Positions 49,533 through 64,000 of a stretch of DNA of 64,000 nucleotides are shown here, piece after piece; positions within the stretch are counted from its first letter, which is position 1; each line of letters begins with the position of its first letter. Source of the stretch: Candidatus Bipolaricaulota bacterium. Lineage in GTDB: Bacteria; Patescibacteriota; Patescibacteriia; UBA11705; DATKZF01. Under the pieces are notes generated by a model. That model saw only the letters and a list, made by a program, of their open reading frames with translations. It was not told where the DNA came from and ran no database searches. The translations under genes were made by a program, and so were the position numbers. The stretch lies in NCBI GenBank assembly GCA_035528115.1, contig DATKZF010000003.1, forward strand, positions 423,089 through 487,088. Reading direction: 5' to 3'.

Positions 49533-49564
49533 ATAAAAAATCGGCCGCCCGGCCGATTTTTTTG
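49533..49564 (+). terminator. Rho-independent terminator after gyrA, followed by two GC hairpins
   Basis: aaaaaatcggccgcccggccgattttttt; then ggtagagacgcgcc/ggcgcgtctctacc and ccggcggcggatcgccgccgtcgg. Confidence 0.6.
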
Positions 49565-49636
49565 TTTGGCGCGTGTCATGGTAGAGACGCGCCACGGCGC
49601 GTCTCTACCAACCGGCGGCGGATCGCCGCCGTCGGT

Positions 49637-50605
49637 TTATACCACGCGCCAATGTCCGTCTTCTTTGATTATTTTTCCGTCCAAGGTGAATCCCGATGCG
49701 CGTCTGTGTCCGCCGCCGCCGAGGGCCATGGCCAATTTGGAAACGTCGATATTGTCTTTGGTCGTGCGGATACTGCCTTTTATTTTTCCCTCCCCGGTTT
49801 CTCTCAAAACAACTATGATGTTCGGCTGATACAAATTCATCAGGAAATTGGCAATGCCGTTGACCGAGTCATCATCGACGAAGTTGTCCGCCAAATCCTT
49901 TTCGGTAACGGCCGCGAAAGCGATTTTATATTTTTCATTGTATTTCAAACCGGAAAAGACCCTGCCCCAAAATTTTAAAGTCTTGAAGTTTTTGTTTTTC
50001 CATAAACTTTGCAAGGCCGCTTTTATTCTGGCGCCTCGGCTCATTAATTCCGAGGAAATTTCCATGCTCGCTTGCGTGGTGGCCGCGTTGGAAAAAAAGG
50101 TGGTGTCCGAGATAATGCCGGTCAAAAGCGAATTGAGCGATCCTTTGTCCAGCTTGATTAGATTGTTTTTAAATAATCGATAAACGATTTCGGAAGTGGA
50201 GGAGCTTTCGGGTTTAACGATATTGATATCGCCGTAATTGTTATTGGTGAAATGATGATCGATATTTATCAAAGTCGAGGTTTTGTCCCTGTTCATTATT
50301 AAATCGGCAATGCCGGTTTGTTTGATTTCCCCGCAATCAAGACAAACAATGGTTTGGAATTTGTTTAATTCGTTTTCAAGAATCGAATTGATTAAAACCA
50401 GTCGTGTTTCCTTCAATGACTCGGGCGTCAAATCCGCGCAAAAGCAGACGACGTTTTTTTTCTTTGTTTGGCAGTGATAAAAAAAAGCCGCGGCCGCACC
50501 GATGGTGTCCGCGTCAGGATTTCTATGACAGACGATTAAAACATCTCGGCTTTCGTCAATCTTGTCCAAAATTTTCTTTTCCAGTATTTTCATCTTTGAT
50601 TTCAT
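49637..50605 (-). CDS. nrnA: DHH-family phosphoesterase (NrnA-like nanoRNase / pAp phosphatase)
   Basis: DHH motifs LIVCHRNPDADTIGAAAAF and NIDHHFTNN; DHHA1-like C-terminus GGGHRRASGF. Start trimmed to MKSKMKILEKK. Confidence 0.7.
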   Translation of the reverse strand: MKSKMKILEKKILDKIDESRDVLIVCHRNPDADTIGAAAAFFYHCQTKKKNVVCFCADLTPESLKETRLVLINSILENELNKFQTIVCLDCGEIKQTGIADLIMNRDKTSTLINIDHHFTNNNYGDINIVKPESSSTSEIVYRLFKNNLIKLDKGSLNSLLTGIISDTTFFSNAATTQASMEISSELMSRGARIKAALQSLWKNKNFKTLKFWGRVFSGLKYNEKYKIAFAAVTEKDLADNFVDDDSVNGIANFLMNLYQPNIIVVLRETGEGKIKGSIRTTKDNIDVSKLAMALGGGGHRRASGFTLDGKIIKEDGHWRVV

Positions 50606-51364: not shown

Positions 51365-52669
51365 ATGAAGTCTCTAATAAAAAAATTCATTCCCAAAAGC
51401 GTTTTATCGCTTTACCACAAATTTTTGGCGATTGTGGCGCGTTTTGCGTTCGGCAATCCTTCTGAAAAAATGATTGTCATCGGCGTGACCGGCACGAACG
51501 GCAAGTCATCGACCGTAAAATTGATCGCCAAGGCCCTGGCGAGCGAAGGCGCCAAAGTCGGTTACACCTCCACTTCGGAATTTCAAATCGGCGACAAAGA
51601 ATGGCTCAACAAAACGAAAATGACCATGCTCGGCCGTTTTCAATTGCAAAAACTTTTGAAAAAAATGGTTGACGCGGGTTGCCGATACGCGGTGGTGGAA
51701 GTTTCTTCGCAAGGCGTGGAGCAATTTCGCCATTTTGGCATTAATTTCGATTACGCTATTTTTACGAATTTAACTCCGGAGCACATCGAAGCTCATGGAG
51801 GTTTTGAAAATTACAAAAAAGCCAAAGGCAAATTTTTCAAATTCCTGACTTTGCGGCCGCGAAAGAAAATTAACGGTCAAGAAATCAAAAAAGTCATGGT
51901 CGTCAATCGAGACGACGAGCACTCCGATTATTTCCTGTCTTTTCCGGCTGACAAAAAATTGATTTTCAGCGCCCAAGACAAATTAAGCGACGTTTTTGCG
52001 GAAAATATTAAAGTCTCGACTTTGGGCACCTCGTTTTCCGTTAAAGGCCTTGAAATAAATTTGCGTTTGCTGGGCAAGTTCAATGTTTACAACAGTTTGC
52101 CCGCGATCGCCATCGGTTTGAACGAAGGACTTGATTTGGAAAAAATAAAAGCCGCGCTCGAGGCCGCGAAAGTCATTCCCGGACGCATGGAATTGATAGA
52201 TGAGGGTCAGCCGTTTTCGGTCATTGTCGATTACGCGCCCGAGCCGTACAGCTTGGCGAAATTATATGAGACGCTTGATTTGATGCAAAAAAATAAATTG
52301 ATTCACGTCTTGGGTTCGTGCGGGGGCGGACGCGATGTGGCCCGTCGGCCGATTTTGGGCAAGATGGCCGGCGAAAAGGCGGACATTGTCATTGTCACCA
52401 ATGAAGATCCGTACGATGATGATCCTCAAAAAATAATTGATGAAGTGGCGGCCGGCGCGATCGGGGTTGGGAAAAAATTGAATGAAAATCTTTTTAAGAT
52501 ATTGGACAGAAAAGAAGCCATTGCCAAGGCCATGAATTTGGCCGGCGCCGGGGATTTGGTGGTTTTGACCGGCAAGGGTTCGGAGCAGGCGATTGTGGTG
52601 AAGAACAATAAGAAGATGCCGTGGGATGAGAGGGAGGCGGCGAGGGAGGTTTTGAGGAGGCGGTGTTAA
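51365..52669 (+). CDS. Mur ligase family protein (MurE/MurF-like UDP-N-acetylmuramoyl-peptide ligase)
   Basis: VIGVTGTNGKSST P-loop, DYAIFTNLTPEHIEAHGGFENYKKAKGKFF, C-terminal Mur_ligase_C. ATG 51365 preferred over the track start 51170, which reads through the MITE-like element. Confidence 0.8.
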   Translation: MKSLIKKFIPKSVLSLYHKFLAIVARFAFGNPSEKMIVIGVTGTNGKSSTVKLIAKALASEGAKVGYTSTSEFQIGDKEWLNKTKMTMLGRFQLQKLLKKMVDAGCRYAVVEVSSQGVEQFRHFGINFDYAIFTNLTPEHIEAHGGFENYKKAKGKFFKFLTLRPRKKINGQEIKKVMVVNRDDEHSDYFLSFPADKKLIFSAQDKLSDVFAENIKVSTLGTSFSVKGLEINLRLLGKFNVYNSLPAIAIGLNEGLDLEKIKAALEAAKVIPGRMELIDEGQPFSVIVDYAPEPYSLAKLYETLDLMQKNKLIHVLGSCGGGRDVARRPILGKMAGEKADIVIVTNEDPYDDDPQKIIDEVAAGAIGVGKKLNENLFKILDRKEAIAKAMNLAGAGDLVVLTGKGSEQAIVVKNNKKMPWDEREAAREVLRRRC

Positions 52670-52688
52670 TTTGCATTGATTCATAAAA

Positions 52689-54839
52689 ATGTTAAATTCA
52701 AAACCAAAACCAAAAATGAATATTTTAATCTATTCAGTATATGGTTTGACAATTTTTATCAGCGCTTTTTTGCTTTTTCAAATCCAGCCACTCATCAGCA
52801 AACACATTTTGCCTTGGTTTGGCGGCGTCGCTTCTGTCTGGACGATTTGCATGCTTTTTTTTCAGGCAATACTGTTTCTGGGATATTTGTATGCTCATTT
52901 AATCACGAAATACTTATCAAATAAAAAACAAATAACGGTTCACGTTGCGTTATTAATCATTGCCGCCATTTCATTGTCAATTCTGCCGGAAGCGATATGG
53001 AAACCGACTGTCGGCGACAACCCTGTATTTCTCATCCTGCTTTTATTAAGTGCGTCCGTGGCCTTACCCGCCATTATCCTTTCTTCAACTTCTCCCCTGC
53101 TCCAAAGCTGGTTTAGCAAACAAAACATTGAAAAGTCCCCTTATAAATTATACGCGATATCAAACGCCGGATCTCTACTCGCGCTTTTGAGCTTCCCTTT
53201 TTTATTTGAGCCTTTAATGCCTATAAGCGCTCAAGCAAACTTTTGGATAGTCGGATTCATTCTGTTCGTAGTTTTATGTCTATTCTCGGGTTTGTTTTTA
53301 TTTAGGAAGAAAAAAATAATAGTTGAAAAAGTCATTTCTATCCGAAATACTGAAAAGCCGACAATAAAAATGAAATTGTACTGGCTGATTCTGGCAACAT
53401 CCACTTCTATTTTGCTTTTAGCCGTTACTGAGAAAATTTCACATGATATTTCCGTGATCCCTTTTCTCTGGGTGGCTACGCTTAGCTTGTATTTAATAAC
53501 CTTTGTTATTGCTTTTTCAAGAGCCGAGAATGAAAAGCGGCGCAATAATTTATTCCCAAATTTTTTAATTTTGTGCGTTATATGCCTGTTCCTCTTTATT
53601 GGACTTAATCATCTTTTTTCGCATCTAATCACGTATTTGTTCATTTTATTTTTATTTTGCCTTGCTTGCAATCACGAATTGGTTAGATTAAAACCTGTCT
53701 CTGATTATTTAACCTCATTTTATTTGTTTATCGCGGCGGGTGGCATTGCGGGAGGCATTTTTGCCGGCATTATTGCTCCTTTAATTTTTAATACCTATGC
53801 GGAACTCCCTCTAATAATTGTTGTTTGTGTGATTATCACGTTAATTGTTATTTTAAAAGAGGCAAGCTGGCATTGGAAAATAGTTAAAACCGGTTCAGGC
53901 CAAATACAATTCACTCTTTACAAATTTGATAAAAAATTTCAATTTTCAGGGAAACCGCAAAATTATATTTTTGTTGCATTAATAGTATTCTTTTCTATTT
54001 TTTGTTTCGGAGCCATGATTTATGATAATCCACAAGGCGATTCGAAGGTGCTGGAAAAATCCAGGAATTTTTATGGTATGTTAACGGTGGAGTCATTTAA
54101 TTCCTCCGGTGAAGGCTCGCCCAGGAGAGAGTTAATATCAGGCAATATTCTTCACGGCTCGCAATTGACTGAAGAATGTAAACAAAAAAATCCCACAAGC
54201 TATTATGGCCACCAAAGCGGTGTCGGCCTTCTTCTTGATCGCTATCAAGACAAGCCGAAGCGAGTCGGCATAATCGGGTTGGGCGCGGGCACCATTGCAG
54301 CTTATGGACAGAGCGGGGATTATTTCAAGTTTTATGAGATTAATCCCGAAGTTACAAACATCAGCAAAAAATATTTCACTTACGTGGAAAATTCAGAGGC
54401 TACTATAGATATTGCAGAGGGGGACGCACGGCTATCGCTTGAGCGAGAAAATTTTCAAAATTATAATATCTTAATCATTGATGCTTTTACCAATGATTCG
54501 ATTCCAGTTCATCTTTTAACTAAAGAAGCATTTGACATATATTTAAAACATCTTAATAATGACGGAGTGATTGCCTTGAATATTTCCAGCCTTTATATTG
54601 ATTTGACGCCGGTAGTTTTAAAACTGGCCGAATATAACCACCTCGATGCCGAGATTATTGCTTCAAATGGTGATATAGACCAAAATACCGCGACTGCCCT
54701 GTGGATTTTGCTAAGCAAGAATGAAAATTTGATTAAAAACTTGAATAACAGTTCCGATGATTTCGCTGAAAAAATAGATATCAGCGCTGCTGACCTATGG
54801 ACAGATGATTACAGCAATATTTTTAAATTGCTTAAGTAA
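52689..54839 (+). CDS. Polytopic membrane domain fused to spermidine-synthase-like (PABS) methyltransferase-fold domain
   Basis: About 12 N-terminal TM helices; C-terminal VGIIGLGAGTIAAYG...YEINPEV...IIDAFTNDSIPVHLLTKEAFDIYLKHLNNDGVIALN matches aminopropyltransferase family architecture. Confidence 0.55.
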   Translation: MLNSKPKPKMNILIYSVYGLTIFISAFLLFQIQPLISKHILPWFGGVASVWTICMLFFQAILFLGYLYAHLITKYLSNKKQITVHVALLIIAAISLSILPEAIWKPTVGDNPVFLILLLLSASVALPAIILSSTSPLLQSWFSKQNIEKSPYKLYAISNAGSLLALLSFPFLFEPLMPISAQANFWIVGFILFVVLCLFSGLFLFRKKKIIVEKVISIRNTEKPTIKMKLYWLILATSTSILLLAVTEKISHDISVIPFLWVATLSLYLITFVIAFSRAENEKRRNNLFPNFLILCVICLFLFIGLNHLFSHLITYLFILFLFCLACNHELVRLKPVSDYLTSFYLFIAAGGIAGGIFAGIIAPLIFNTYAELPLIIVVCVIITLIVILKEASWHWKIVKTGSGQIQFTLYKFDKKFQFSGKPQNYIFVALIVFFSIFCFGAMIYDNPQGDSKVLEKSRNFYGMLTVESFNSSGEGSPRRELISGNILHGSQLTEECKQKNPTSYYGHQSGVGLLLDRYQDKPKRVGIIGLGAGTIAAYGQSGDYFKFYEINPEVTNISKKYFTYVENSEATIDIAEGDARLSLERENFQNYNILIIDAFTNDSIPVHLLTKEAFDIYLKHLNNDGVIALNISSLYIDLTPVVLKLAEYNHLDAEIIASNGDIDQNTATALWILLSKNENLIKNLNNSSDDFAEKIDISAADLWTDDYSNIFKLLK

Positions 54840-54885
54840 TGGACTTGTTAAAATTGATAAGTACCGGATATAGCGACAAGATAAC

Positions 54886-54962
54886 TACGCAAAGAAGAAC
54901 AATAAAAAGATGCCGTGGGATGAGAGGGAGGTGGCGAGGGAGTGTTTGAGGAGGCGGGGGAA
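54886..54962 (+). repeat. Degenerate copy 2 of the Mur-ligase 3' terminus (att-like remnant)
   Basis: aagaacaataaaaagatgccgtgggatgagagggaggtggcgagggagtgtttgaggaggcggggg versus native 52600-52665. Confidence 0.7.
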
Positions 54963-55032
54963 TAATTAATTAGGGAGTTAAATATAAAAGGTAGTTGGCC
55001 AAAAGGTTCACTTAAACATTAACCAATTATGT

Positions 55033-55434
55033 ATGAAAATATTTAAAAATATATTTGGCTTAATATTGTTGGCAATAAGCGGATTTTATGCGATGTTTGC
55101 TGTAAGTTTTATACGCGAGATCCCTCTTTTTAATAGCGCATTTGGCAGCTTACTATGGCTGATTGCTATACTGGGTTTATTGGGGGTAACCGGATTATGG
55201 ACAACAATTTTGTTAAGAATCTTTCAAAAGGATGTCAAAAAACCAATCACAAAATATCTTATTTACATTGGAATCGTCGCAGCCCTAACAGTCTCTGTGA
55301 TAGGTTTTTCATTTTTTGGATTAAAAGAGTCAATCATCGCTTTAGGAAATTTTATGCTTAGTTGGGGATTATTGTTGTTTTCAATAGCTGTTATTGTTTA
55401 TTTGAAATTTGAACCATTTCGTAAGAAAAAATAA
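55033..55434 (+). CDS. Hypothetical small membrane protein (4 TM)
   Basis: 133 aa, strongly hydrophobic. Confidence 0.35.
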   Translation: MKIFKNIFGLILLAISGFYAMFAVSFIREIPLFNSAFGSLLWLIAILGLLGVTGLWTTILLRIFQKDVKKPITKYLIYIGIVAALTVSVIGFSFFGLKESIIALGNFMLSWGLLLFSIAVIVYLKFEPFRKKK

Positions 55435-55615
55435 ACGTATGGTCTAACAGCGCCTATGGTAAATGTCGTTTTCTCGCCTTCGGTGGACGATGAGCCGCAA
55501 ACGTTATCTCAATCACAGAACGCGCGATTTCGCGCGTTTTTTGGTTGATTTTTGGGGGTGGATGTGGTATGTTGGGGGTAATTAAATGGAAAATATGCCT
55601 CTATACTAATCGATA

Positions 55616-55715
55616 ATGGAAGGCGCGGAGCAGGCGATTGTGGTTAAGAATAATAAAAAGATGCCGTGGGATGAGAGGGAGGCGGCGAGGGAGGTTTTGA
55701 GGAAAATCAACAAAT
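55616..55715 (+). repeat. Degenerate copy 3 of the Mur-ligase 3' terminus (about 85 bp, att-like remnant)
   Basis: ggagcaggcgattgtggttaagaataataaaaagatgccgtgggatgagagggaggcggcgagggaggttttgagg versus native 52572-52660. Confidence 0.7.
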
Positions 55716-55769
55716 AGTAACCTATCAAAAAAGGTCAAAATATATCAGCCGAAGTTATAAGTTAATAAT

Positions 55770-58631
55770 ATGACAGGAAATTTTAAAATAGAAATCAGAC
55801 ATTTAGTTAAAAATTTTAAAGAGCAAGATGGTCAGAGACGGTCTGAAGAAGATATCCAAACCAGCTTTACTATTAAATTAATGGAGGTTCTCGGCTGGGA
55901 CAGCTCTCATTGGGCAATAAATACCGGTCAGGACGTAAAAACAGGCAAAAAGCCTGATATTGTTTTAAAATCAGGATCTTCAAAATTGATAGTTATCGAA
56001 TCAAAAGATGCCAAGAAAAAAGATATGCTTGACGGCTCATACGGCAACAAAACTTTTAAGCAGCAACTATTTAATTATTGCAAAGCGGAAGGGGTGGCCT
56101 GGGGTATTTTGACTAATTTTATTGAATGGCGATTGTACAGTGTTCATCATAGTCGATTATACAAAGAGAAGAAATATGCTTTTTACGATTTGTTATGGCC
56201 TAACGCAGATAAGAGCAGTTACGTGGATTTATTGTCCGATGAGGGGATGCAATTTCTAAATTTAATTTCAAAAGAAAATTTAATTAAAAAGAATGGAATT
56301 ATTGATCCTGATCCGATATATTATCCTGAACAGCTAGATATAGAGCAAGAAAAAATAAAAAAAGAATTTTTCAGCAAGATAAAAAATTGGCGCGAGAATT
56401 TACGAAAATTTATAAATAAAAATTATTCTAAATATACCCTTGAGGAAGTTGATTTAATGGCGCAGAAGATATTAGATCGAATGATTTTTATTGATATTTG
56501 TCATGATAAGGGCATTGTTTATGAAAATCATCTTCGTGCAATATTATCTTCAAAATTGCCCAAGTACGAAGAGTTGAAGGAGAAATTTAAGGTAATGAAC
56601 GAGAAGTTCAACACTGAGCTTTTTGCTCAAAATACTATTGATGAAATTAAAATTAGCAACGATGTAATAATCCCTATTATAGAAGAATTAGACGAAATCG
56701 ATTTTAGCAAACTTAGTGTTCACATTATTGGGGAAGTATATGAAAATTATCTGGGAGAGATAGCCAAGGGGAACGTGAAGAAAGAAGATGTAATGAAGGC
56801 AAAACAAAAAAATAAACGAAAATCGCAAGGTATATACTATACTCCTGATTACATTGTTGATTATATTGTCAAAAAGACAGTGGGTGAATTGTTGAAAAAA
56901 GCTAAAACAAAAGAGGATATAGAGAAAATTAGAGTTTTGGACCCTGCTTGCGGTTCGGGTTCGTTTTTAATTCGTGCTTTTGATGAGTTTTTTGAGGCAT
57001 ACAAGAGAGTAATGAAGGAAGGTGGGCTTTTAGGTTTTGAAATAAAGAAAAAAATATTGCAAAACAACCTTTTCGGCGTTGATTTAGATCCCAAAGCTGT
57101 GGAAATCGCCAAGCTAAACCTAATGATTAAGGCGCTTGAAGGCGCGACGCCAAACGAATTAAGAGGCGATCATTTGCTACCTAACTTGAATCTAAATATT
57201 CGTTGTGGCAATTCCTTGATTGGAGGGGAGAAGTTAAAAGAAAAGGAAAATAATTTGAATCTGTTTGACAAGTTTGACGATGAAATAAAAAAATTAATTG
57301 ATTTTAAGGAGCGGTTTCGTAAATCCATCTCTAATGATGAAAAAAAAGAAATTCTGAACGAAATTAATATATTTGAGGGATACATTAATAAAGAAGTAAA
57401 TGATAGCCTGTATAAATATTTCAAGAATTTGAATAGAATTAGGCCATTCAATTACACAATCGCTTTTTGTGAAATATTCAAAGACGGTGGATTTGATGCG
57501 GTGATTGGAAATCCGCCATATATTAGACCACATAGAATTGACACAAGTATAAAAGGATATTTATGGGAAAATTATTATTCATTCAAGGCAAAATCCGATA
57601 TCTACGTATGTTTCATTGAAAATGCAATACAACTCACGAAAAAAGGCGGACTAATTTCATATATAGTTTCAAACACATGGCTATCATTAGAGAGTTTCGA
57701 AAATCTACGAACTTTCATCCTAAACAATACAAAAATAAAAATGTTGATTAACCCTCCAGCAAAGGTTTTTAGTGGAGCGCAAGTGTCGACGATTGTTTTT
57801 GTTTTTGAAAAAGATGAATCTAAGGGAAATAAAATAATTGTAGGGGGATTATCTCAAAACGCATTCAAACTCGAGGGTGCAATAAAACAAACGCTGTTCA
57901 ATAAAACACACAAAAAAGTTTTCGATTTATCTTTACTAGATAAACAGGTTTTTTCAATAAAGGTTGCAACGACCCCGTTAAAAAAAGTCGCGAAATTTTA
58001 CTATGGAATAAAAACCGGAGATGATGAGAAATTTTTGACTTTCAAACCCAAAGATAAAAATAATTATAAACAACTTTTAAGAAGAAGTGATTTTAATCGA
58101 TATCTAATAGATTACAAAGGTGAGTATGTTTGGTACGCACCAGAATTAATGAAAGAAAATAAAGCCACCGCTCGGCCAGGAGAACCAAAAAGATTCGATG
58201 AAACAAAAATTATTATAACTGACATTGCAAAAAAAATAATTGCGACATTGGATTTACGACATTATTATATTAAAGATGCCTTAATCCTTCATCAAATAAA
58301 AAATGGTTATGATTTAAGGTATTTATTAGGTGTTATAAATTCAAAATTATTAAATTTTATCTACACCAAGACATTTAGAAATTTGAGCGTAGCTAAAAAC
58401 GCTTTTATGCAATTGCCAATTAAGATAATAGAGATTAGTGAAGAAAAAGCTTTGTATAACACAATTGTTCGCTTGGTAGACCAATTGCTTAAATTAAATA
58501 AGACTACAGAATCCCGCGAAATAAACAAAACAAAAATCCAGGCGCTGGATTATGAAATTGATAAGATGGTGTATAAGCTTTATGGGTTGGGGGAGTCTGA
58601 GATAAAAACAATTGAACAAGCTGTAAAATAA
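55770..58631 (+). CDS. Type IIG restriction-modification enzyme (MmeI/Eco57I-like: N-terminal PD-ExK nuclease, gamma-class N6-adenine methyltransferase, C-terminal TRD)
   Basis: 953 aa; nuclease motif KPDIVL...IVIESKD; MTase motif I VLDPACGSGSFLI and motif IV IGNPPYI. Confidence 0.8.
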   Translation: MTGNFKIEIRHLVKNFKEQDGQRRSEEDIQTSFTIKLMEVLGWDSSHWAINTGQDVKTGKKPDIVLKSGSSKLIVIESKDAKKKDMLDGSYGNKTFKQQLFNYCKAEGVAWGILTNFIEWRLYSVHHSRLYKEKKYAFYDLLWPNADKSSYVDLLSDEGMQFLNLISKENLIKKNGIIDPDPIYYPEQLDIEQEKIKKEFFSKIKNWRENLRKFINKNYSKYTLEEVDLMAQKILDRMIFIDICHDKGIVYENHLRAILSSKLPKYEELKEKFKVMNEKFNTELFAQNTIDEIKISNDVIIPIIEELDEIDFSKLSVHIIGEVYENYLGEIAKGNVKKEDVMKAKQKNKRKSQGIYYTPDYIVDYIVKKTVGELLKKAKTKEDIEKIRVLDPACGSGSFLIRAFDEFFEAYKRVMKEGGLLGFEIKKKILQNNLFGVDLDPKAVEIAKLNLMIKALEGATPNELRGDHLLPNLNLNIRCGNSLIGGEKLKEKENNLNLFDKFDDEIKKLIDFKERFRKSISNDEKKEILNEINIFEGYINKEVNDSLYKYFKNLNRIRPFNYTIAFCEIFKDGGFDAVIGNPPYIRPHRIDTSIKGYLWENYYSFKAKSDIYVCFIENAIQLTKKGGLISYIVSNTWLSLESFENLRTFILNNTKIKMLINPPAKVFSGAQVSTIVFVFEKDESKGNKIIVGGLSQNAFKLEGAIKQTLFNKTHKKVFDLSLLDKQVFSIKVATTPLKKVAKFYYGIKTGDDEKFLTFKPKDKNNYKQLLRRSDFNRYLIDYKGEYVWYAPELMKENKATARPGEPKRFDETKIIITDIAKKIIATLDLRHYYIKDALILHQIKNGYDLRYLLGVINSKLLNFIYTKTFRNLSVAKNAFMQLPIKIIEISEEKALYNTIVRLVDQLLKLNKTTESREINKTKIQALDYEIDKMVYKLYGLGESEIKTIEQAVK

Positions 58632-58634
58632 TTT

Positions 58635-59369
58635 ATGAAATGTAAATTATGTGGGGAAGAGAAAGTATTAGTTAATGCACATATCATACCAAAAGTTTTC
58701 TATAATTACATCTATAAAAATACCAATGACCATTCTTTAGCGCTTGCATCAAGTAAAAACAATGTTCGGAAAAAGAGGGTCCCAAAAGGCATATATGATA
58801 AAAAGATCCTTTGTAAAGAATGTGATAATAGCTTGGGGGTTTATGATGATTATGCAAGCCGATTATTGTTGTGTGAATTTGATCCCGGAAATTTTATAGC
58901 TGACGGACAGGGCTATAAAATTGATAAGTATGCTTTTGATAAATTATCATTCTTTTTTTTATCTGTTCTGTGGCGTGCATCAATCACTACTCACGAATTA
59001 TTTAGACGAGTTTCCCTCGGGCCATACGAAACTAAAATAAAGGATATCTTAACAATGGAAAACGTTGATAAACTAAATGAATTTAATATTTTAATTTTAC
59101 GATATCTTGATTTCGCGGGTCAAAATTCCATTTTAGAACCATTCTTGACAAGAATAGATAAAATCAGATTTAATGTAATTTTTTTGGGTGGAGGATATAA
59201 ATTTTTTTTACGAGTAGATAAACAAAGATTGCCTGCACAAAACAAATTGAATATTTTGTTCATGAGACAAGATAAACCATTATTAATTTTAGTTGAAAAA
59301 GATATAAAAAAATGCAGCGATTTCCATGTGTTGAAGGCAATAACGTGGAACAATCTGCAAAAAAAGTAG
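58635..59369 (+). CDS. Hypothetical protein with N-terminal HNH-like zinc-finger motif, immediately downstream of the RM gene
   Basis: CKLCGEEKVLVNAHIIPK...N...CKECDN resembles CxxC...HIIP...N...CxxC of HNH nucleases; remaining about 170 aa unassigned. Starts 4 nt after the RM gene stop. Confidence 0.35.
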   Translation: MKCKLCGEEKVLVNAHIIPKVFYNYIYKNTNDHSLALASSKNNVRKKRVPKGIYDKKILCKECDNSLGVYDDYASRLLLCEFDPGNFIADGQGYKIDKYAFDKLSFFFLSVLWRASITTHELFRRVSLGPYETKIKDILTMENVDKLNEFNILILRYLDFAGQNSILEPFLTRIDKIRFNVIFLGGGYKFFLRVDKQRLPAQNKLNILFMRQDKPLLILVEKDIKKCSDFHVLKAITWNNLQKK

Positions 59370-59441
59370 CAATAGTAAAGTAACTATGTAATCAAGGCAT
59401 TATGATGCTAATATCTTCGCTATAAATAACAAAATAATAAT

Positions 59442-60113
59442 ATGGAAAAACAAATTTTACAATATGAGGACGACTTGAAAAGACATTTTCAAGAACAACT
59501 AAATTTTTTGGAAAAATCGGCCACTGAATTTGATAATGGCGATGAATCAGAAGCAAAGCGAATGGCAACACATCTACGTACATTACTTCATAATACTGTA
59601 AAATCTACATCGCTTTTGCAGCATTTGAATTTATTACATACAAAATTTTTTGATTCCTCATTCAATTATGATCCTGGAATTACTTCTTTTTGCAGTTTAA
59701 TTGTTATTGATGTTACTAATTTAAAATACCAACCATTTTTAGATGACTCCTCTGAGAGTAATAAGAATATATCAATAGATTTTGAAAATTGGTGGAGTAA
59801 AAATCCTGTTTTTATTGATTTAAATAAAAATGAATTTACACGAAAGGATATAATTTTATTTTTAACCAACAAAGATGGGGGCGCTCATGTGGATACTATG
59901 GCAGAAGAAAAATTTGTTAAATTCTCTCGCCAAAATTCTATCGGATGGAATTTCGTTAAAAATGGAAATGAGATTAAGGTTAGGGGAGCTGACATAGCCG
60001 CCATAAGACAAATAACCCATGAGGTTTTGAAAACTTTCATCCATAATTATACAAAAACAAGGGATGTCCATGGAGTTGAATTTGCATCTATATCAATAGA
60101 GGAAGTTGAATAA
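59442..60113 (+). CDS. Hypothetical protein (AT-rich island gene)
   Basis: 223 aa; no family recognised. Confidence 0.3.
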   Translation: MEKQILQYEDDLKRHFQEQLNFLEKSATEFDNGDESEAKRMATHLRTLLHNTVKSTSLLQHLNLLHTKFFDSSFNYDPGITSFCSLIVIDVTNLKYQPFLDDSSESNKNISIDFENWWSKNPVFIDLNKNEFTRKDIILFLTNKDGGAHVDTMAEEKFVKFSRQNSIGWNFVKNGNEIKVRGADIAAIRQITHEVLKTFIHNYTKTRDVHGVEFASISIEEVE

Positions 60114-60127
60114 TAATTAAAATTGTA

Positions 60128-60343
60128 TTGATTATAAAAAAGGTAAATTTTATGAATAAGTATTATACATGTATCATTTGCGGCTCATTAGTTTTTTTTG
60201 TTGCACAACAAGTTGCATTTATGTGTGAGGAATGTTTTTTAGAAAAACATGTACATTTGCCAGAACAATATTACGCAACGAATTTTTATAACCTGCAAAC
60301 AGCTGGACTATCTGCGACGTTATCGGCAAATATTGACAGGTAA
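60128..60343 (+). CDS. Small Cys4 zinc-ribbon-like protein
   Basis: 71 aa; CIICGS...CEEC pairs. Confidence 0.25.
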   Translation: MIIKKVNFMNKYYTCIICGSLVFFVAQQVAFMCEECFLEKHVHLPEQYYATNFYNLQTAGLSATLSANIDR

Positions 60344-60375
60344 ATCATTCAAGGAGATGCACAATATTTTTGTTA

Positions 60376-60462
60376 TTTATCGCCTAAAATGGTCGGTTTG
60401 AATCCTATGTATTAGTTTGCACTAGCTAAAAAACCTCAATGTTTGCCGCCAAAAACATCCAC
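60376..60462 (+). repeat. 87-bp direct repeat, copy A (upstream of rhuM-fic)
   Basis: ttatttatcgcctaaaatggtcggtttgaatcctatgtattagtttgcactagctaaaaaacctcaatgtttgccgccaaaaacat, followed by terminator-like ccccgccccgcgcgggagattttttt (60463-60487). Confidence 0.7.
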
Positions 60463-60567
60463 CCCGCCCCGCGCGGGAGATTTTTTTAAAATGCCGGCCG
60501 CGATTATTTATTTGACACATTCCCCAAAATCACGAAAAATGGAAGTATTGGCCGGTTAAAATTATTT

Positions 60568-61557
60568 ATGAAACAAAAAAATCATTCAAAGGGCGAAATA
60601 ATGATTTATACAACCTCGAAAAACGAGGTGGAGTTGAAGGTTCATTTTAAAAATGAATCTGTTTGGCTTGGACAAAGTGAAATTGCGTTGCTGTTTGGCA
60701 GAGAACGATCGGTTATCACCAAGCATATCAATAAGATTTTTTCTGATAAAGAAGTTGATAAAGCAAGCAATGTGCAAAAAATGCACATTGCAAATTCTGA
60801 TAAACCCGTGGAATTTTACAGCCTAGATGTAATTTTAGCCGTGGGTTACCGCGCGAATTCACCCCGCGCCATCCATTTTCGCCATTGGGCCACGAAAATC
60901 TTGAAACAATATTTAATCAAGGGTTACGCCATAAACGAAAAACGTCTGCTGGAAGCTCAAAATAAATTCAAAGAACTTCAAGAAACGGTTTTATTTTTGC
61001 AAAAACATTCAAAAAAGGAATTGTTGAAAGGACAAGAAGCGGAAATTTTAAATTTACTTGCCGATTACTCAAAAACACTTTCATTGCTTGGACAATACGA
61101 TAACGGAAAACTGGCGGAAAAGAAAGGCAAAAGGACGAAATTTATTCTGCGATACAACGATTGCTCCAATATAGCGGTTAAACTTAAAGACGGACTTATC
61201 GCCAAAAAAGAGGCCGGCGACTTGTTCGGGCATGAACGGGGAGGAAGCTTTGAAGGTATTATCTCCGGGTTGTATCAGTCTTTCGCGAGAAAGGAGCTGT
61301 ATCCCGCGATTGAAGACAAAGCGTCTCATTTGCTTTACTTAATGATCAAAGACCATCCCTTTTTTGACGGCAATAAAAGAATCGCTTCGTTTTTATTTGT
61401 TTATTTTCTGGACAGGTCAAATTATCTTTTCAAAAAATCCGGCGAGCGAAAAATCAATGACAACGCGTTGACGGCGCTGGCGCTGCTTATTGCCGAAAGC
61501 GCTCCAAAAGATAAAGAGACAATGATTAAAATTATTAAAAATTTAATTGGCGAATAA
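60568..61557 (+). CDS. RhuM-like N-terminal domain fused to Fic/Doc-family domain
   Basis: N-terminal KGEIMIYTTSKNEVELKVHFKNESVWLGQSEIALLFGRERSVITKHI (RhuM virulence-protein family); C-terminal HPFFDGNKRIASFLF matches the Fic core motif HxFx(D/E)GNxR. Confidence 0.75.
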   Translation: MKQKNHSKGEIMIYTTSKNEVELKVHFKNESVWLGQSEIALLFGRERSVITKHINKIFSDKEVDKASNVQKMHIANSDKPVEFYSLDVILAVGYRANSPRAIHFRHWATKILKQYLIKGYAINEKRLLEAQNKFKELQETVLFLQKHSKKELLKGQEAEILNLLADYSKTLSLLGQYDNGKLAEKKGKRTKFILRYNDCSNIAVKLKDGLIAKKEAGDLFGHERGGSFEGIISGLYQSFARKELYPAIEDKASHLLYLMIKDHPFFDGNKRIASFLFVYFLDRSNYLFKKSGERKINDNALTALALLIAESAPKDKETMIKIIKNLIGE

Positions 61558-61579
61558 TTATATATAATATGCCTCTTTT

Positions 61580-61607
61580 CTCCCGCCTCCGCGCGGGAGT
61601 TTTTTTT
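61580..61607 (+). terminator. Rho-independent terminator after rhuM-fic
   Basis: ctcccgcctccgcgcgggagtttttttt. Confidence 0.6.
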
Positions 61608-61681
61608 GTTATTTACCGCCTAAAATGCTCGATTTGAATCCAAAGTATTAGTTTGCATTAGCTAAAAAACCTCAATACCTC
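61595..61681 (+). repeat. 87-bp direct repeat, copy B (downstream of rhuM-fic, upstream of rpoB promoter)
   Basis: ttatttaccgcctaaaatgctcgatttgaatccaaagtattagtttgcattagctaaaaaacctcaatacctcccgccaaaaacat; about 85% identical to copy A. Confidence 0.7.
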
Positions 61682-61790
61682 CCGCCAAAAACATTTGTCA
61701 AATTTTTTGTGGATAAGGTGGGAGTTGGCGATCGGAGGAGGGCGGAAATTAGTCTAAATTTAGCTAAATGCAGTGGCCTGCGCCTTGCCC

Positions 61791-61819
61791 TTGACAATAC
61801 CCGCGGGGATTGATATTAT
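61791..61819 (+). promoter_or_regulatory. Candidate rpoB promoter (TTGACA-17 bp-TATTAT)
   Basis: TTGACA 61791-61796, TATTAT 61814-61819; about 130-nt leader to the rpoB ATG. Confidence 0.45.
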
Positions 61820-61952
61820 ATGAATACGTTTAAACCCGCCTGGAGCCTTATTTTAGGCAAAAAAGTAATCTTATTATGGCGGAGAGCCACTCATATACAA
61901 CAATTAAATTTTAAATTAACAAACTCGTTCCATGGGGAAGGGGAATATTTTT

Positions 61953-64000
61953 ATGTCTAAAAAACTAAATACCATGTCAGGCCGAAAGTTCTTCACCGCT
62001 CCTTACAGGTATGAAATGCCGGATTTGATTGACATTCAGAAAAATTCTTACAACTGGTTTGTTCGAGAAGGACTCAAAGAGTTGTTCGGCGAATTGTCTC
62101 CCATCCAAGATGTTTCCGGCAAACAGCTTGAACTTTCCTTTGAAGATTATTATTTGGACGAGCCCAAGTTCGACGAGACCACCAGCAGAGATAAAAATAT
62201 CACCTATGAAGCGCCGTTGAGAGTTAAGGTCAAACTGGAAAATAAAAAGAACGGCACCAAAGAAGATCAGGAAATATTTTTGGGCGATTTTCCGATGATG
62301 ACCGATCGAGGAACTTTCGTCATCAATGGAATTGAGCGCGCCATAGTTTCGCAGATTATCAGATCATCGGGCGTGTTTTTTACTTCCAATTTTCTGCGCG
62401 AAAAAAATAAAACATTTTACGGAGCGAAAATAATTCCGAACAGAGGCGCTTGGCTGGAATTCGAGACTGACACCAATAACGTGATTTGGGTCAAGATCGA
62501 TCGAAAGAGAAAAGTGGCGGCCACGGCATTGCTTCGAGCTTTCGGCGTGGGGACCGATCAAGAGATTTTGAATTTGACCAAAGACGTCGAAACTCATCCT
62601 GATATCAATTACACCCAATCGACGATCGACAAAGACGCGTCTCGAACGATCGAAGAAGGCTTGATCGAAGTTTATAAAAGAATAAGGCCGGGCGATCTGG
62701 CCACTGCCGATAACGCCAAGTCGCTTATCTACGCCATGTTTTTCAATTTCAGCAGATATGATTTCGGCAAAGTCGGTCGATATAAATTAAATCAAAGATT
62801 CAACGAGCAATTGGAAAACATTGATGTCAATAGAATTTTGCGCATCGAAGACGTGGCTAACGTGATTAAAGAAATCATCAGATTGAATGTTACCCAGCAA
62901 GAAGCCGATGATATCGATCATTTGGGCAATCGAAGAATCAGGGCCATTGGCGAATTGATTCAAAATAAATTCAGAATAGGTTTGGCTCGCATGGAAAGAA
63001 TCGTCAAAGACAGAATGACCACCATGGATCCGACCATTATGACCCCGGCGAAATTAATCAACGCGCGGCCGGTCATCGGCGTGGTCAAGGAATTTTTCAT
63101 GTCTTCGCAATTGTCGCAATTCATGGATCAGACCAATCCCTTGTCCGAGCTGGAGCATAAGAGAAGAATCTCGGCCATGGGACCGGGCGGACTCTCTCGA
63201 GAACGCGCGGGCTTTGAAGTTCGCGACGTTCACACCACTCACTATGGCAGAATCTGTCCGATCGCCACGCCTGAAGGTCCGAACATCGGACTGGTGGGCC
63301 ATTTGGCCAGCTATGCCAAGGTTAATGAATACGGATTTATTGAAACGCCGTTTTTTAAAGTTGAACATATTATAAAGAAGGATTTGAAAGACCCGGAAAC
63401 CAAAGCCGTATTATTCAAAAAAGGACAGTCCGTGCTGGGCGCGGAATTGGAAAAAATAAGTTTGGATCCGGATGAAATTCTGGAAAAAGTGGAAAGCAGA
63501 TTAAGCGATGAAGTCATTTACTTGAACGCTTTGAAGGAAGAAAAAGCCATTACCACTTCGGCCACCATACCGGTCGATGACAAAGGCGTGTTTTTGAAAA
63601 AAAGAGCGAATGTCCGAAAATACGGACATCCGGAAGTGTCATATACTTACTTAATAGATTACGTGGACGTGGCGCCCAATCAGATCGTCAGCGTGGCCAC
63701 CTCATTGATTCCTTTCTTGGAACACGATGACGCGGTGCGCGCTTTGATGGGCACGAACATGCAACGTCAAGCGGTGCCCACGGTGGTGCCGCAGTCTCCG
63801 GTGGTTGGCACGGGAGTCGAAGAAAAAGCCGCTCGCGATTCCGGCCATTTGGCCATTGCCGAAAAAGACGGCACAGTCGTGGGTCTCGATTCATCGAAAA
63901 TAGAAGTTTTGGAAAAGGACGGCAACATCAGACTTTATCGATTGAAAAAATTCGTCTGTTCCAACGCTTCGACTTCAATCAATCAGCGCCCCATCATCAA
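61953..64000 (+). CDS. rpoB: DNA-directed RNA polymerase subunit beta, N-terminal about 680 codons (continues beyond window)
   Basis: MSKKLNTMSGRKFFTAPYRYEMPDLIDIQKNSYNWF...GDFPMMTDRGTFVINGIERAIVSQIIRSSGVFF...FFKVEHIIKKDLKDPE...LIPFLEHDDAVRALMGTNMQRQAVP; open to the window end, hence absent from the ORF track. Confidence 0.95.
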   Translation, partial: MSKKLNTMSGRKFFTAPYRYEMPDLIDIQKNSYNWFVREGLKELFGELSPIQDVSGKQLELSFEDYYLDEPKFDETTSRDKNITYEAPLRVKVKLENKKNGTKEDQEIFLGDFPMMTDRGTFVINGIERAIVSQIIRSSGVFFTSNFLREKNKTFYGAKIIPNRGAWLEFETDTNNVIWVKIDRKRKVAATALLRAFGVGTDQEILNLTKDVETHPDINYTQSTIDKDASRTIEEGLIEVYKRIRPGDLATADNAKSLIYAMFFNFSRYDFGKVGRYKLNQRFNEQLENIDVNRILRIEDVANVIKEIIRLNVTQQEADDIDHLGNRRIRAIGELIQNKFRIGLARMERIVKDRMTTMDPTIMTPAKLINARPVIGVVKEFFMSSQLSQFMDQTNPLSELEHKRRISAMGPGGLSRERAGFEVRDVHTTHYGRICPIATPEGPNIGLVGHLASYAKVNEYGFIETPFFKVEHIIKKDLKDPETKAVLFKKGQSVLGAELEKISLDPDEILEKVESRLSDEVIYLNALKEEKAITTSATIPVDDKGVFLKKRANVRKYGHPEVSYTYLIDYVDVAPNQIVSVATSLIPFLEHDDAVRALMGTNMQRQAVPTVVPQSPVVGTGVEEKAARDSGHLAIAEKDGTVVGLDSSKIEVLEKDGNIRLYRLKKFVCSNASTSINQRPII

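What the first reader, a model, noticed from the sequence alone, without database searches (positions are those of the whole stretch)
55716..61700. AT-rich defence/toxin island: MmeI-like type IIG RM + HNH-like protein + unknown genes + Cys4 mini-protein + RhuM-Fic/Doc, inserted directly upstream of rpoB
A single-chain type IIG enzyme (PD-ExK nuclease + NPPY methyltransferase) is followed after 4 nt by a 244-aa protein with an HNH-type CxxC...HIIP...N...CxxC head. A 223-aa orphan and a 71-aa zinc-ribbon-like ORF lie in a noticeably more AT-rich stretch (59.3-60.4 kb). A RhuM-domain/Fic-domain fusion (HPFFDGNKRIA) comes last. The tightly linked genes after the RM enzyme have no assignable family and could be an uncharacterised RM accessory or abortive-infection module. 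The island places foreign defence genes immediately upstream of rpoB and its candidate promoter.
Basis: partly seen in the sequence, partly recalled or inferred. Interest (0 to 1): 0.65.

Follow-up and report, generated by a model that had tools for sequence, protein, structure and literature searches.

The report
Defence-gene cassettes inserted between murE and rpoB
A 9.3-kb stretch of foreign, AT-rich genes sits between two housekeeping genes (murE and rpoB) of a small-genome Patescibacteria-like bacterium; it was probably built up by several separate insertions, and it is an ordinary defence island apart from two genes from large uncharacterised families.

Summary
The region is foreign: GC3 is 0.23-0.31 against 0.50±0.06 in core genes. 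In six of the nearest relatives (Patescibacteria, rpoB 59-63% identical) murE lies 180-930 bp upstream of rpoB. Here the gap is 9.26 kb (52670-61931), larger than the reported interval.

The last ~70-80 nt of murE recurs twice, at 54886-54965 and 55626-55703. A 92-nt segment of the rpoB leader recurs on both sides of the RhuM-Doc gene. No integrase is present.

- **Gene A:** a complete type IIG restriction-modification enzyme of the Eco57I type, not the MmeI family.
- **Gene E:** a RhuM-Doc fusion, PADLOC candidate PDC-S23. Its link with restriction-modification loci is already published.
- **Gene B:** the "HNH" call is not supported. B belongs to a large Pfam-less family (8,355 clusters at 50% identity). 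It is usually solitary; 2 of 80 metagenome loci place it beside an Eco57I-type R-M fusion gene.
- **Gene C:** not an orphan. Its family occurs on plasmids and as phage cargo, and about half of the aligned homologues carry a SEC-C tail.
- **Gene D:** has no homologue anywhere.

A, B, C and E most likely act independently. This is a new member of a known kind, of moderate interest.

The parts
51365..52669 (+). murE (UDP-MurNAc-tripeptide synthetase), the core gene on the left flank. Its last ~80 nt are repeat R1.
   Evidence: TIGR01085 at 344 bits against a cut-off of 257. Start taken from the gene call in the identical contig L090. The murE homologue lies directly upstream of rpoB in six relatives.
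52581..52669 (+). R1: the 3' end of murE, reference copy of the duplicated target sequence.
52689..54839 (+). Cassette 1: 716-aa polytopic membrane protein with a spermidine-synthase-like domain (fused MFS/spermidine synthase family).
   Evidence: NF037959 at 61.5 bits against a cut-off of 40. GC3 0.379. Absent from the murE-rpoB gap of relatives.
54886..54965 (+). R1': partial copy of the murE 3' end, running through the position of the murE stop codon.
   Evidence: About 94% identical over ~67 nt by my count on the alignment. Contains the exact 25-mer AAGATGCCGTGGGATGAGAGGGAGG.
55033..55434 (+). Cassette 2: 133-aa membrane protein with no family assignment, followed by a terminator-like hairpin at 55522-55537.
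   Evidence: GC3 0.299
55626..55703 (+). R1'': second partial copy of the murE 3' end (96% over 78 nt), ending 66 nt before gene A. A Logan assembly of the same population begins inside this repeat.
55770..58631 (+). A: type IIG restriction-modification enzyme. It has an N-terminal PD-ExK nuclease, a gamma-class N6-adenine methyltransferase (Eco57I type) and a TaqI_C specificity domain.
   Evidence: PADLOC PDLC03604 at 6e-90, covering residues 6-505. Pfam Eco57I 1e-39, N6_Mtase 4e-28, TaqI_C 1e-12. Motifs located. Best PDB relatives are CamA, BREX PglX and M.TaqI.
58635..59369 (+). B: 244-aa member of a very large Pfam-less family. C3, H16-I-I-P, F107 and SVLWRA (110-115) are conserved. The predicted fold has no match among solved structures.
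59442..60113 (+). C: 223-aa member of the phrog_7805 family. D31, G33, R46, W118, R134, G146-G147, H149, D151, R189, I191 and E194 are invariant, within the motifs GGAHVD and IRQIxHE. This copy lacks the SEC-C zinc tail that about half of the aligned homologues carry.
60152..60343 (+). D: 63-71-aa CxxC...CxxC ORF with no homologues; doubtful as a gene.
   Evidence: only the identical sequence was found; no family
60367..60458 (+). R2a: 92-nt copy (89%) of the rpoB-leader segment R2b.
60462..60487 (+). GC hairpin plus T-run. It is terminator-like, closes the A-D block, and is 85% identical to the hairpin after E.
   Evidence: (D10)
60568..61557 (+). E (cassette 4): RhuM-domain / Doc-type Fic-domain fusion (HPFFDGNKR), with a TTGACA-17-AAAAAT promoter-like site at 60512-60540.
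   Evidence: PF13310 at 77 bits, PF02661 at 36.6 bits. PADLOC PDC-S23 at 7e-116, full length. TIGR01550 at 36.1 bits against a cut-off of 38.65. phrog_577 Doc-like toxin.
61580..61607 (+). Terminator-like hairpin (CTCCCGC-loop-GCGGGAG plus T8) after E.
61603..61694 (+). R2b: 92-nt rpoB-leader segment, partner of R2a.
61708..61716 (-). Perfect DnaA-box 9-mer (TTATCCACA) between R2b and the rpoB promoter. The same 9-mer occurs in the murE-rpoB gaps of relatives L010, L012 and L018.
61791..61819 (+). Candidate rpoB promoter: TTGACA, 17-nt spacer, TATTAT, with an extended -10 TG.
61932..64000 (+). rpoB (5' part; it runs off the window), the core gene on the right flank.

Best explanation
The interval between murE and rpoB (52670-61931, 9.26 kb) is a genomic islet assembled by at least three, probably four, separate insertions into one hotspot of a Patescibacteria-like genome.

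The array reads: murE(R1) | 716-aa membrane protein | R1' | 133-aa membrane protein | R1'' | A-B-C-(D) | R2a-hairpin | E | hairpin-R2b | DnaA box | promoter | rpoB. R1' and R1'' are partial copies of the murE 3' end, and R2a/R2b are copies of a 92-nt leader segment. I read both as target or anchor duplications. They could come from Campbell-type or site-specific integration of circular DNA, or from homology-facilitated illegitimate recombination of DNA taken up from relatives. This is inferred. No recombinase is encoded in the gap.

The defence content is a set of independently acting single-gene systems:
1. **A** is a complete type IIG enzyme. It should methylate one adenine in an asymmetric site and cut unmodified DNA at a distance. 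The domains and motifs are shown; the activity is inferred.
2. **E** is a RhuM-Doc fusion. Its Doc-type HxFxxGNKR domain would, by analogy with P1 Doc, phosphorylate EF-Tu and stop translation when triggered (inferred).
3. **B and C** each belong to a large, uncharacterised, horizontally mobile family. Members are found singly in defence and toxin-antitoxin neighbourhoods, on plasmids and as phage cargo genes. They are most likely stand-alone defence or abortive-infection genes, co-transcribed with A here only because they landed in the same cassette.
4. **D** is probably not a gene.

rpoB keeps its own promoter and is insulated from the island by a terminator-like hairpin.
For: **Insertion**
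- murE lies 180-930 bp upstream of rpoB in L010, L011, L012, L014, L015 and L018. None of them has a homologue of any island gene in that gap.
- GC3 z-scores are -3.2 to -4.4 for the 133-aa gene and A-D, -2.0 for the 716-aa gene and -1.5 for E.

**Stepwise assembly**
- The exact 25-mer from the murE end occurs three times and nowhere else in the window; 0 are expected by chance.
- The alignment shows the three copies differ in their end points.
- The 92-nt R2 pair (89%) and the hairpin pair (85%) bracket E.
- No tyrosine-integrase-like sequence exists in the window. None of the seven ORFs in the gap matched a recombinase or transposase family.

**Gene identities**
- A.
- E. The fusion of RhuM to Doc and its placement in R-M loci are described in PMC3710099.

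**Independence of B and C**
- B homologues in four genomes sit beside HicA, YoeB/Phd, RHH-PIN, HigB and an HNH gene, with no type IIG enzyme.
- In 80 metagenome loci B has no C, D or E nearby, and no neighbour family recurs across distinct contigs.
- Neighbours that abut B include ClpB and MutS, and also AIPR, a reverse transcriptase, T5orf172+ResIII and Mrr_cat.
- C homologues sit next to DarT/NADAR, HepT/MNT, type I hsdRMS and tyrosine integrases, and inside phage morphogenesis modules.

**Family size**
- B has 8,355 clusters at E <= 1e-3.
Against: - A stop and B start are only 3 nt apart, and no + strand terminator-like site lies in the gaps between A, B, C and D; the next one downstream of A is the hairpin at 60463. 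The four ORFs are therefore probably one transcript, which is compatible with functional coupling.
- In L103 a B homologue lies between an Eco57I-type R-M fusion gene and a Methylase_S gene. In L123 a similar locus holds NYN and B. A link between B and this kind of enzyme therefore exists in a minority of loci.
- No experiment supports a defence role for B, C or PDC-S23.
- The order R2a-hairpin ... hairpin-R2b is permuted, and a single simple crossover does not explain it.
- The nearest relatives are distant (rpoB 59-63% identity). The 'empty site' therefore shows ancestral adjacency, not a recent empty allele.
Confidence: 0.72

Rival explanations
1. B (perhaps with C and D) is a dedicated accessory or second-line effector of the type IIG enzyme. 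It would be comparable to PrrC or RloC embedded in type I R-M loci, firing when the R-M enzyme is inhibited by a phage.
For: - There is a 3-nt gap between A and B, and no terminator-like site in the gaps between A, B, C and D.
- L103: [HSDR_N_2+N6_Mtase+Eco57I]-[B]-[Methylase_S]. L123: the same R-M architecture, then NYN, then B.
- PMC3710099 documents toxins embedded in R-M operons.
Against: - 78 of 80 metagenome loci and 4 of 4 genome loci with B homologues have no such enzyme beside B.
- B also abuts ClpB and MutS, and in L097 it sits between a 333-aa ORF and a Mur-ligase-like ORF, overlapping each by 4 nt.
- C and B never co-occur elsewhere.
- D has no homologues.
Confidence: 0.12
2. B is an HNH (His-Me finger) nuclease, as the first reader proposed from the CxxC...HIIP...CxxC pattern.
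For: - The local pattern C-x2-C-x9-H-I-I-P matches the start of Pfam HNH_5 (E 0.074). It also aligns to the CxxC..H.xP of a genuine HNH_5 protein.
- H16 is invariant. E/D64, D55 and D71 are conserved acidic residues.
Against: - HNH_5 scores 13.4 bits against a cut-off of 27.5. Only 1 of 61 family members reaches E < 0.01.
- hhalign gives probability 1.5%.
- No HNH protein appears among the listed PDB or BFVD Foldseek matches, despite a confident model with pLDDT 87.8.
- C6, C60 and C63 are replaced by T, T and G in about half of the family, while C3 stays invariant.
- No Asn or His at position 24 is conserved.
Confidence: 0.15
3. The block is native to this lineage, not horizontally acquired. 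On this reading low GC reflects membrane or low-expression genes, and the repeats arose by local duplication.
For: - The 716-aa gene and E deviate only modestly (GC3 z = -2.0 and -1.5).
- Identical arrangements occur in all assemblies of this population that were recovered.
Against: - Six relatives have murE next to rpoB.
- A-D have GC3 0.23-0.31.
- The nearest homologues of B and C come from unrelated phyla, plasmids and phages.
Confidence: 0.04

Closest known systems
Type IIG restriction-modification enzymes of the Eco57I / TaqI_C-TRD kind (REBASE type IIG; PADLOC REase_MTase_IIG)
   Same: One polypeptide carries an N-terminal PD-ExK motif (D63...E77-x-K79), methyltransferase motif I (DPACGSG), motif IV (NPPY) and a C-terminal TaqI_C specificity domain. 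The PADLOC profile covers the nuclease and methyltransferase halves.
   Different: It is not in the MmeI family. MmeI_N is below threshold and no other MmeI domain model matched. The best plasmid homologues are 28.6% identical or less. The recognition site and cleavage are untested.
RhuM-Doc fusions in R-M neighbourhoods (Anantharaman et al. 2013, PMC3710099); PADLOC candidate PDC-S23
   Same: It has the same two-domain architecture and a full-length match to the PDC-S23 profiles (7e-116). It carries the Doc-type HxFxxGNKR motif and lies 2 kb from an R-M gene.
   Different: Here it is a separate cassette with its own promoter-like site and terminator, bracketed by the R2 repeats, not part of the R-M operon. 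I found no experimental validation of PDC-S23.
Genomic islands integrated at the 3' end of a housekeeping or tRNA gene, with flanking direct repeats; tandem ('additive') island accretion
   Same: The 3' end of the target gene is duplicated at the cassette boundaries. The cargo is compositionally foreign. The syntenic site is empty in relatives.
   Different: There is no integrase, no tRNA, and the cassettes are very small (0.7-4.7 kb). The repeat copies have different end points, which fits illegitimate or homologous joints better than one precise att core.
Rugutis (SEC-C-motif single-gene antiphage system of Lactococcus plasmids, PMC11381338)
   Same: Many C-family members also carry a SEC-C zinc motif. 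Like Rugutis, they have a confident predicted fold with no PDB match and occur on dairy Lactococcus plasmids, including pUCCL633A itself.
   Different: hhalign matches only the 22-residue SEC-C motif, not the core. The motif is N-terminal in Rugutis and C-terminal in most C homologues that have one (N-terminal in L199). The window's C lacks it altogether.
PrrC/RloC-type toxins embedded in R-M operons
   Same: B follows the R-M gene by 3 nt. In L103 a B homologue sits between the R-M and S genes.
   Different: There is no sequence or fold relation, and the association is seen in only about 3 of 85 loci.

Membership tests
Type IIG R-M enzyme | Nuclease and methyltransferase in one polypeptide, with an N-terminal PD-(D/E)xK motif | tested here: met
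   P62-D63...E77-S-K79. PADLOC REase_MTase_IIG PDLC03604 matches residues 6-505 at 6e-90. The Pfam nuclease models alone are sub-threshold: HSDR_N_2 0.032, MmeI_N 0.026.
Type IIG R-M enzyme | Gamma-class N6-adenine methyltransferase motifs I (xxGxG) and IV (NPPY) | tested here: met
   DPACGSG at 391 and NPPY at 581. Eco57I at 136.9 bits and N6_Mtase at 99.1 bits.
Type IIG R-M enzyme | Built-in target recognition domain | tested here: met
   TaqI_C at 48.5 bits against a cut-off of 26.5, residues 769-875.
Type IIG R-M enzyme | Cleavage at a fixed distance from the site, and hemimethylation | not testable with these tools
   Needs biochemistry or methylome data.
MmeI family (subfamily of type IIG) | MmeI_N, helical, TRD and C-terminal domains | tested here: not met
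   MmeI_N scores 15.3 bits against a cut-off of 27. No other MmeI domain model matched at E <= 0.1. MmeI_Mtase at 51.7 bits is outscored by Eco57I at 136.9. MmeI is not among the PDB sequence hits.
BREX PglX | Reaches the NCBIfam cut-off and has BREX partner genes (brxA/B/C, pglZ, brxL) | tested here: not met
   NF033452 scores 179 bits against a cut-off of 500. The neighbouring genes are B, C, D and E.
HNH / His-Me finger nuclease (gene B) | Significant profile match to an HNH family | tested here: not met
   HNH_5 scores 13.4 bits against 27.5. 1 of 61 members reaches E < 0.01. hhalign probability is 1.5%.
HNH / His-Me finger nuclease (gene B) | Beta-beta-alpha-metal fold | tested here: inconclusive
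HNH / His-Me finger nuclease (gene B) | Conserved catalytic His plus Asn/His metal ligand; structural Cys4 zinc site where present | tested here: inconclusive
   H16 is invariant. Position 24 is not a conserved Asn or His. C6, C60 and C63 are present in only 26-32 of 61 members.
Fic/Doc (gene E, C-terminal domain) | HxFx(D/E)(A/G)N(G/K)R motif and a Pfam Fic match | tested here: met
   HPFFDGNKR is present. PF02661 scores 36.6 bits against a cut-off of 24. TIGR01550 DOC_P1 scores 36.1 against 38.65, just below.
RhuM family / PADLOC PDC-S23 (gene E) | RhuM domain, and a full-length match to the PDC-S23 profile | tested here: met
   PF13310 scores 77.1 bits against 33.7. PDLC04965 scores 385 bits over residues 8-327 of 329.
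SEC-C-motif proteins / Rugutis (gene C) | SEC-C zinc motif; core homologous to Rugutis | tested here: not met
   The window's C has no SEC-C motif, whereas 29 of 60 aligned homologues do. Against Rugutis, hhalign aligns the motif only.
Integrase-mediated genomic island | Absent from the syntenic site of relatives; foreign composition; flanking direct repeats | tested here: met
Integrase-mediated genomic island | Resident integrase or recombinase; tRNA or tmRNA target | tested here: not met
   None of the seven ORFs in the gap matched a recombinase or transposase family. No tyrosine-integrase similarity was found in the window. The only tRNA is at 36759. Serine recombinases and transposases elsewhere in the window were not searched for.

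The most novel reading that the evidence does not exclude
B and/or C are founding members of new single-gene anti-phage (abortive-infection-type) systems. B's family has about 8,400 clusters at 50% identity, and each protein has a confident predicted fold with no significant Foldseek match among solved structures. B may use an invariant Cys3/His16/acidic centre, not a zinc-HNH site.

A second reading the data also leave open: the murE-rpoB gap is an integrase-less gene-capture hotspot. Small cassettes would be added by recombination that duplicates the murE 3' end. That would be a route to gene gain in Patescibacteria, which carry few mobile elements.
Probability: 0.3. Interest if true: 0.6.

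Novelty: new member of a known kind. Interest (0 to 1): 0.38.

Why it matters
Patescibacteria have genomes of about 1 Mb and, from general knowledge, few recognisable mobile elements. Here about 1% of a 0.76-Mb contig is an accreted islet, and the scars of each insertion can still be read. That makes the way such organisms gain defence genes directly testable with long reads or population data.

The island also flags two large protein families for experiment. Neither has a Pfam model and neither predicted fold has a significant Foldseek match among solved structures. Both travel through defence islands, plasmids and phage cargo positions. The B family has about 8,400 clusters.

The named components, the type IIG enzyme and the RhuM-Doc fusion, are already known and add little.

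Tried and rejected
- **Profile searches against PDB sequences.** Nothing was found for B. For C only the SecA-type SEC-C tail matched.
- **C = Rugutis?** Rejected. The C homologue on pUCCL633A (49475-50359) is a different gene from Rugutis (42084-43163), and only the SEC-C motif aligns.
- **B related to Rugutis?** I saw a resemblance by eye (C..C..AHSIQ / FCxxHD against CxxC..AHIIP / LCxxCD). hhalign against the single sequence found nothing, so this stays an untested lead.
- **Other strains.** A metagenome scan for the R1 22-mer, meant to find strains with other cassettes, gave 0 hits.
- **Rfam on 52000-62300.** No match, so R2 is not a known leader RNA.
- **Integrase remnant near D.** None was found.
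- **murE-end duplications in relatives.** None were found.
- **Literature.** A search for PDC-S23 gave no paper. The search for RhuM, Doc and defence returned noise.
- **Supplement.** The supplement of PMC11381338 is not held, so I could not check whether a C homologue was among the tested candidates.

Full report
**1. Observation**

- A, 55770-58631 (953 aa)
- B, 58635-59369 (244 aa)
- C, 59442-60113 (223 aa)
- D, 60128-60343 (71 aa from TTG; 63 aa from the ATG at 60152, which is the start gene callers use)
- E, 60568-61557 (329 aa)

The quoted motifs are present. A has PD(62-63)...ESK(77-79), DPACGSG at 391 and NPPY at 581. B has CxxC, HIIP and CxxC. E has HPFFDGNKR.

Composition is clearly deviant. 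GC3 is 0.305, 0.273, 0.228 and 0.264 for A-D, against 0.503 +/- 0.062 for 39 other genes of the window. E (0.409) deviates less.

rpoB begins at 61932-61974 and runs off the window.

**2. Where the window comes from, and the empty site**

A protein identical to B is on record as a hypothetical protein of a MAG labelled 'Candidatus Bipolaricaulota bacterium', on a 762,837-bp contig. The closest rpoB sequences among species-representative genomes are all Patescibacteria: Buchananbacteria, Magasanikbacteria and the Parcubacteria group, at 59-63% identity.

In six of these relatives (L010, L011, L012, L014, L015, L018) the murE homologue ends 180-930 bp before rpoB. Those gaps are non-coding, apart from one small extra gene in L012. 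In the window murE (TIGR01085) ends at 52669 and rpoB starts at 61932. The inserted block is therefore 9.26 kb.

Besides A-E it holds a 716-aa fused MFS/spermidine-synthase-type membrane protein (52689-54839; NF037959) and a 133-aa membrane protein (55033-55434).

**3.

The last ~80 nt of murE (R1, 52581-52669) recur at two places:
- at 54886-54965, after the 716-aa gene, about 94% identical over ~67 nt and running through the murE stop position;
- at 55626-55703, after the 133-aa gene, 96% identical over 78 nt and ending 66 nt before A.

These are shown. An exact 25-mer from this repeat occurs three times and nowhere else; 0 are expected by chance.

A 92-nt segment (R2) occurs at 60367-60458 and 61603-61694 (89%). 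An 85%-identical GC hairpin with a T-run occurs at 60462-60487 and 61582-61607. Together they bracket E.

The array is therefore: murE/R1 - cassette 1 - R1' - cassette 2 - R1'' - cassette 3 (A, B, C, D) - R2a/hairpin - cassette 4 (E) - hairpin/R2b - DnaA-box 9-mer (61708-61716) - TTGACA/17/TATTAT (61791-61819) - rpoB.

Supporting points:
- The same arrangement is 100% identical in a JGI contig, and a Logan contig begins inside R1''.
- No integrase-like sequence was found in the window. None of the seven ORFs in the gap matched a recombinase or transposase family. There is no tRNA nearby.
- The three R1 copies have different end points.

I read the repeats as scars of successive insertions. Two mechanisms fit. 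One is single-crossover (Campbell-type or site-specific) integration of small circles carrying a murE-end or leader segment. The other is homology-anchored illegitimate recombination of DNA taken up from relatives. This step is inference. The permuted order R2a-hairpin ... hairpin-R2b remains unexplained.

**4. Gene A**

- PADLOC REase_MTase_IIG gives 6e-90 over residues 6-505.
- Pfam gives Eco57I (137 bits), N6_Mtase, MmeI_Mtase (52 bits) and TaqI_C (48.5 bits).
- The nuclease and methyltransferase motifs are intact.
- The best solved relatives are CamA, BREX PglX and M.TaqI, not MmeI.
- The NCBIfam PglX models are far below their cut-offs, and no BREX partner genes are present.

A is a complete stand-alone type IIG enzyme of the Eco57I kind. 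The label 'MmeI-like' is too specific.

**5. Gene E**

- RhuM scores 77 bits and Fic 36.6 bits.
- The Doc-type motif GNKR is present, and phrog_577 'Doc-like toxin' matches.
- PADLOC PDC-S23 gives a full-length match at 7e-116.
- Anantharaman et al. 2013 (PMC3710099) already noted that RhuM is often fused to Doc and sits in R-M neighbourhoods, and proposed a toxin role.

By analogy with P1 Doc, from established knowledge, the effector step would be phosphorylation of EF-Tu. This is inferred, not tested.

**6. Gene B**

Family and fold:
- There is no Pfam, NCBIfam or PADLOC hit. Three PHROGs of unknown function match at E around 1e-19 to 1e-12.
- The word-indexed search gave 68 homologues. An exhaustive profile search found 8,355 clusters at 50% identity with E <= 1e-3, of which 2,044 reach <= 1e-30. 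The best 150 are all single-domain proteins of 228-272 aa.
- The AlphaFold model is confident (pLDDT 87.8). It has no significant match in the PDB and only one uncharacterised family member in BFVD.

The HNH idea rests on a match of about 20 residues:
- HNH_5 scores 13 bits against a cut-off of 27.5.
- hhalign to a genuine HNH_5 protein gives probability 1.5%.
- C3 and H16 are invariant, but C6, C60 and C63 are present in only 26-32 of 61 members, replaced by T, T and G.

The zinc site is therefore optional, and C3 probably has another role.

Context:
- Four genomic loci place B next to toxin-antitoxin genes or an HNH gene, and none next to a type IIG enzyme.
- In 80 metagenome loci no C, D or E homologue is nearby, and no neighbour family recurs across distinct contigs.
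- Immediate neighbours range from ClpB and MutS to AIPR, a reverse transcriptase, T5orf172+ResIII and Mrr_cat.
- Two loci are exceptions. L103 has [HSDR_N_2+N6_Mtase+Eco57I]-[B]-[Methylase_S]. L123 has the same R-M architecture, then NYN, then B.
- B homologues also occur on five plasmids and in Acinetobacter prophages.

B is therefore a promiscuous solitary gene. It is occasionally, not regularly, embedded in R-M loci of the same kind as A.

**7. Gene C**

C is not an orphan.
- It has 120 homologues and matches phrog_7805 at 4e-42.
- The core of about 200 aa has invariant D31, G33, R46, W118, R134, G146, G147, H149, D151, R189, I191 and E194.
- 29 of 60 aligned members add a C-terminal SEC-C zinc motif that the window's copy lacks.
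- The model is very confident (pLDDT 92.5) and has no PDB match.

Contexts:
- DarT/NADAR, HepT/MNT and UvrD-PDDEXK/WYL neighbourhoods.
- Directly after a type I hsdRMS operon on a Lactococcus plasmid.
- On 6-13-kb lactic-acid-bacteria plasmids, followed on pKM2-2 by a small integrase.
- In Lactobacillus phage J-1, between the repressor region and the integrase.
- In 50 IMG/VR loci, either upstream of a tyrosine integrase or as an insert in the head-morphogenesis module.

The SEC-C antiphage protein Rugutis (PMC11381338) shares only the zinc motif with this family.

**8. Gene D**

D has no homologue other than itself among 5.8 billion proteins and no family hit. It is probably a chance ORF in AT-rich DNA or a lineage-specific peptide, and I do not count it as a component.

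**9. Mechanism and verdict**

The best-supported reading is an accreted islet whose defence genes work independently:
- A restricts unmodified DNA.
- E is a candidate translation-arresting toxin.
- B and C are solitary accessory genes. I think a stand-alone defence or abortive-infection role is the most likely one for them (roughly 0.3-0.4 each), from context only.

The tight A-B spacing and the two R-M-embedded B homologues keep an 'R-M accessory' role for B alive at about 0.1.

rpoB is shielded by a terminator-like hairpin and keeps its own promoter-like site. The island is thus unlikely to drive rpoB.

In kind, this is a defence island at a hotspot between core genes: a new member of a known kind. 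What is worth following up is the readable series of insertion scars in a Patescibacteria-like genome, and the two large uncharacterised families.

Noticed in passing
window 52581-52669, 54886-54965, 55626-55703: The 3' end of murE is present three times in direct orientation, separating the 716-aa gene, the 133-aa gene and the A-D block. The copies have different end points. A Logan assembly of the same population begins inside the third copy.
   Followed up: yes
window 60367-60487 and 61580-61694: A 92-nt repeat (89%) and a GC hairpin with a T-run (85%) bracket the RhuM-Doc gene, but in permuted order: repeat-hairpin ... hairpin-repeat. A single simple crossover does not produce this order.
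   Followed up: partly
window 61708-61716 (- strand); L010, L012, L018 murE-rpoB gaps: A perfect DnaA-box 9-mer (TTATCCACA, read as TGTGGATAA on the + strand) lies between murE and the rpoB promoter in the window and in three distant relatives. Only one other copy exists in the 64-kb window (10224). This may be a conserved regulatory site. GC skew shows no origin-like switch here.
   Followed up: partly
window 39512-42367: A second low-GC patch (GC3 0.34-0.39) holds an unknown 291-aa ORF, a DUF1361 protein and a radical-SAM/SPASM enzyme. The radical-SAM gene (41228-42367) is bracketed by 40-nt direct repeats (41097-41136 and 42416-42455, 93%). This is the same 'cassette between repeats' pattern.
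   Followed up: partly
window 33861, 35018, 41100, 42419, 51217: The GC-rich palindrome CCTGCCGGCAGG occurs five times (0.06 expected), so it looks like a REP-like or terminator-like element. The copy at 51217 lies inside the N-terminal extension of the mechanically listed murE ORF, so the real murE start is probably 51365.
   Followed up: no
window 2022-2115: A perfect tandem duplication of a 47-nt unit.
   Followed up: no
whole window: The public record that holds the identical B and D proteins is labelled 'Candidatus Bipolaricaulota bacterium'. The nearest rpoB and murE relatives are all Patescibacteria (59-63% rpoB identity), so the taxonomic label may be wrong.
   Followed up: partly
L097/L098 5003-8003: On another contig (taxonomy not determined) a B homologue sits between a 333-aa ORF and a Mur-ligase-like ORF, with 4-nt overlaps on both sides. 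It is threaded into an operon next to a Mur-ligase gene.
   Followed up: no
L094 42084-43163 (Rugutis, pUCCL633A): By eye the Rugutis core has C..C..(I)SAHSIQ and FCxxHD motifs, arranged like B's CxxC..AHIIP and LCxxCD. hhalign against the single sequence found nothing. A family-level profile comparison was not possible.
   Followed up: partly
L228 2340-3801; L093 3950-5253; L095 3489-5511: C-family genes on lactic-acid-bacteria plasmids and in phage J-1 are immediately followed, or overlapped, by a tyrosine integrase gene or fragment. This may be a small mobile two-gene unit.
   Followed up: partly
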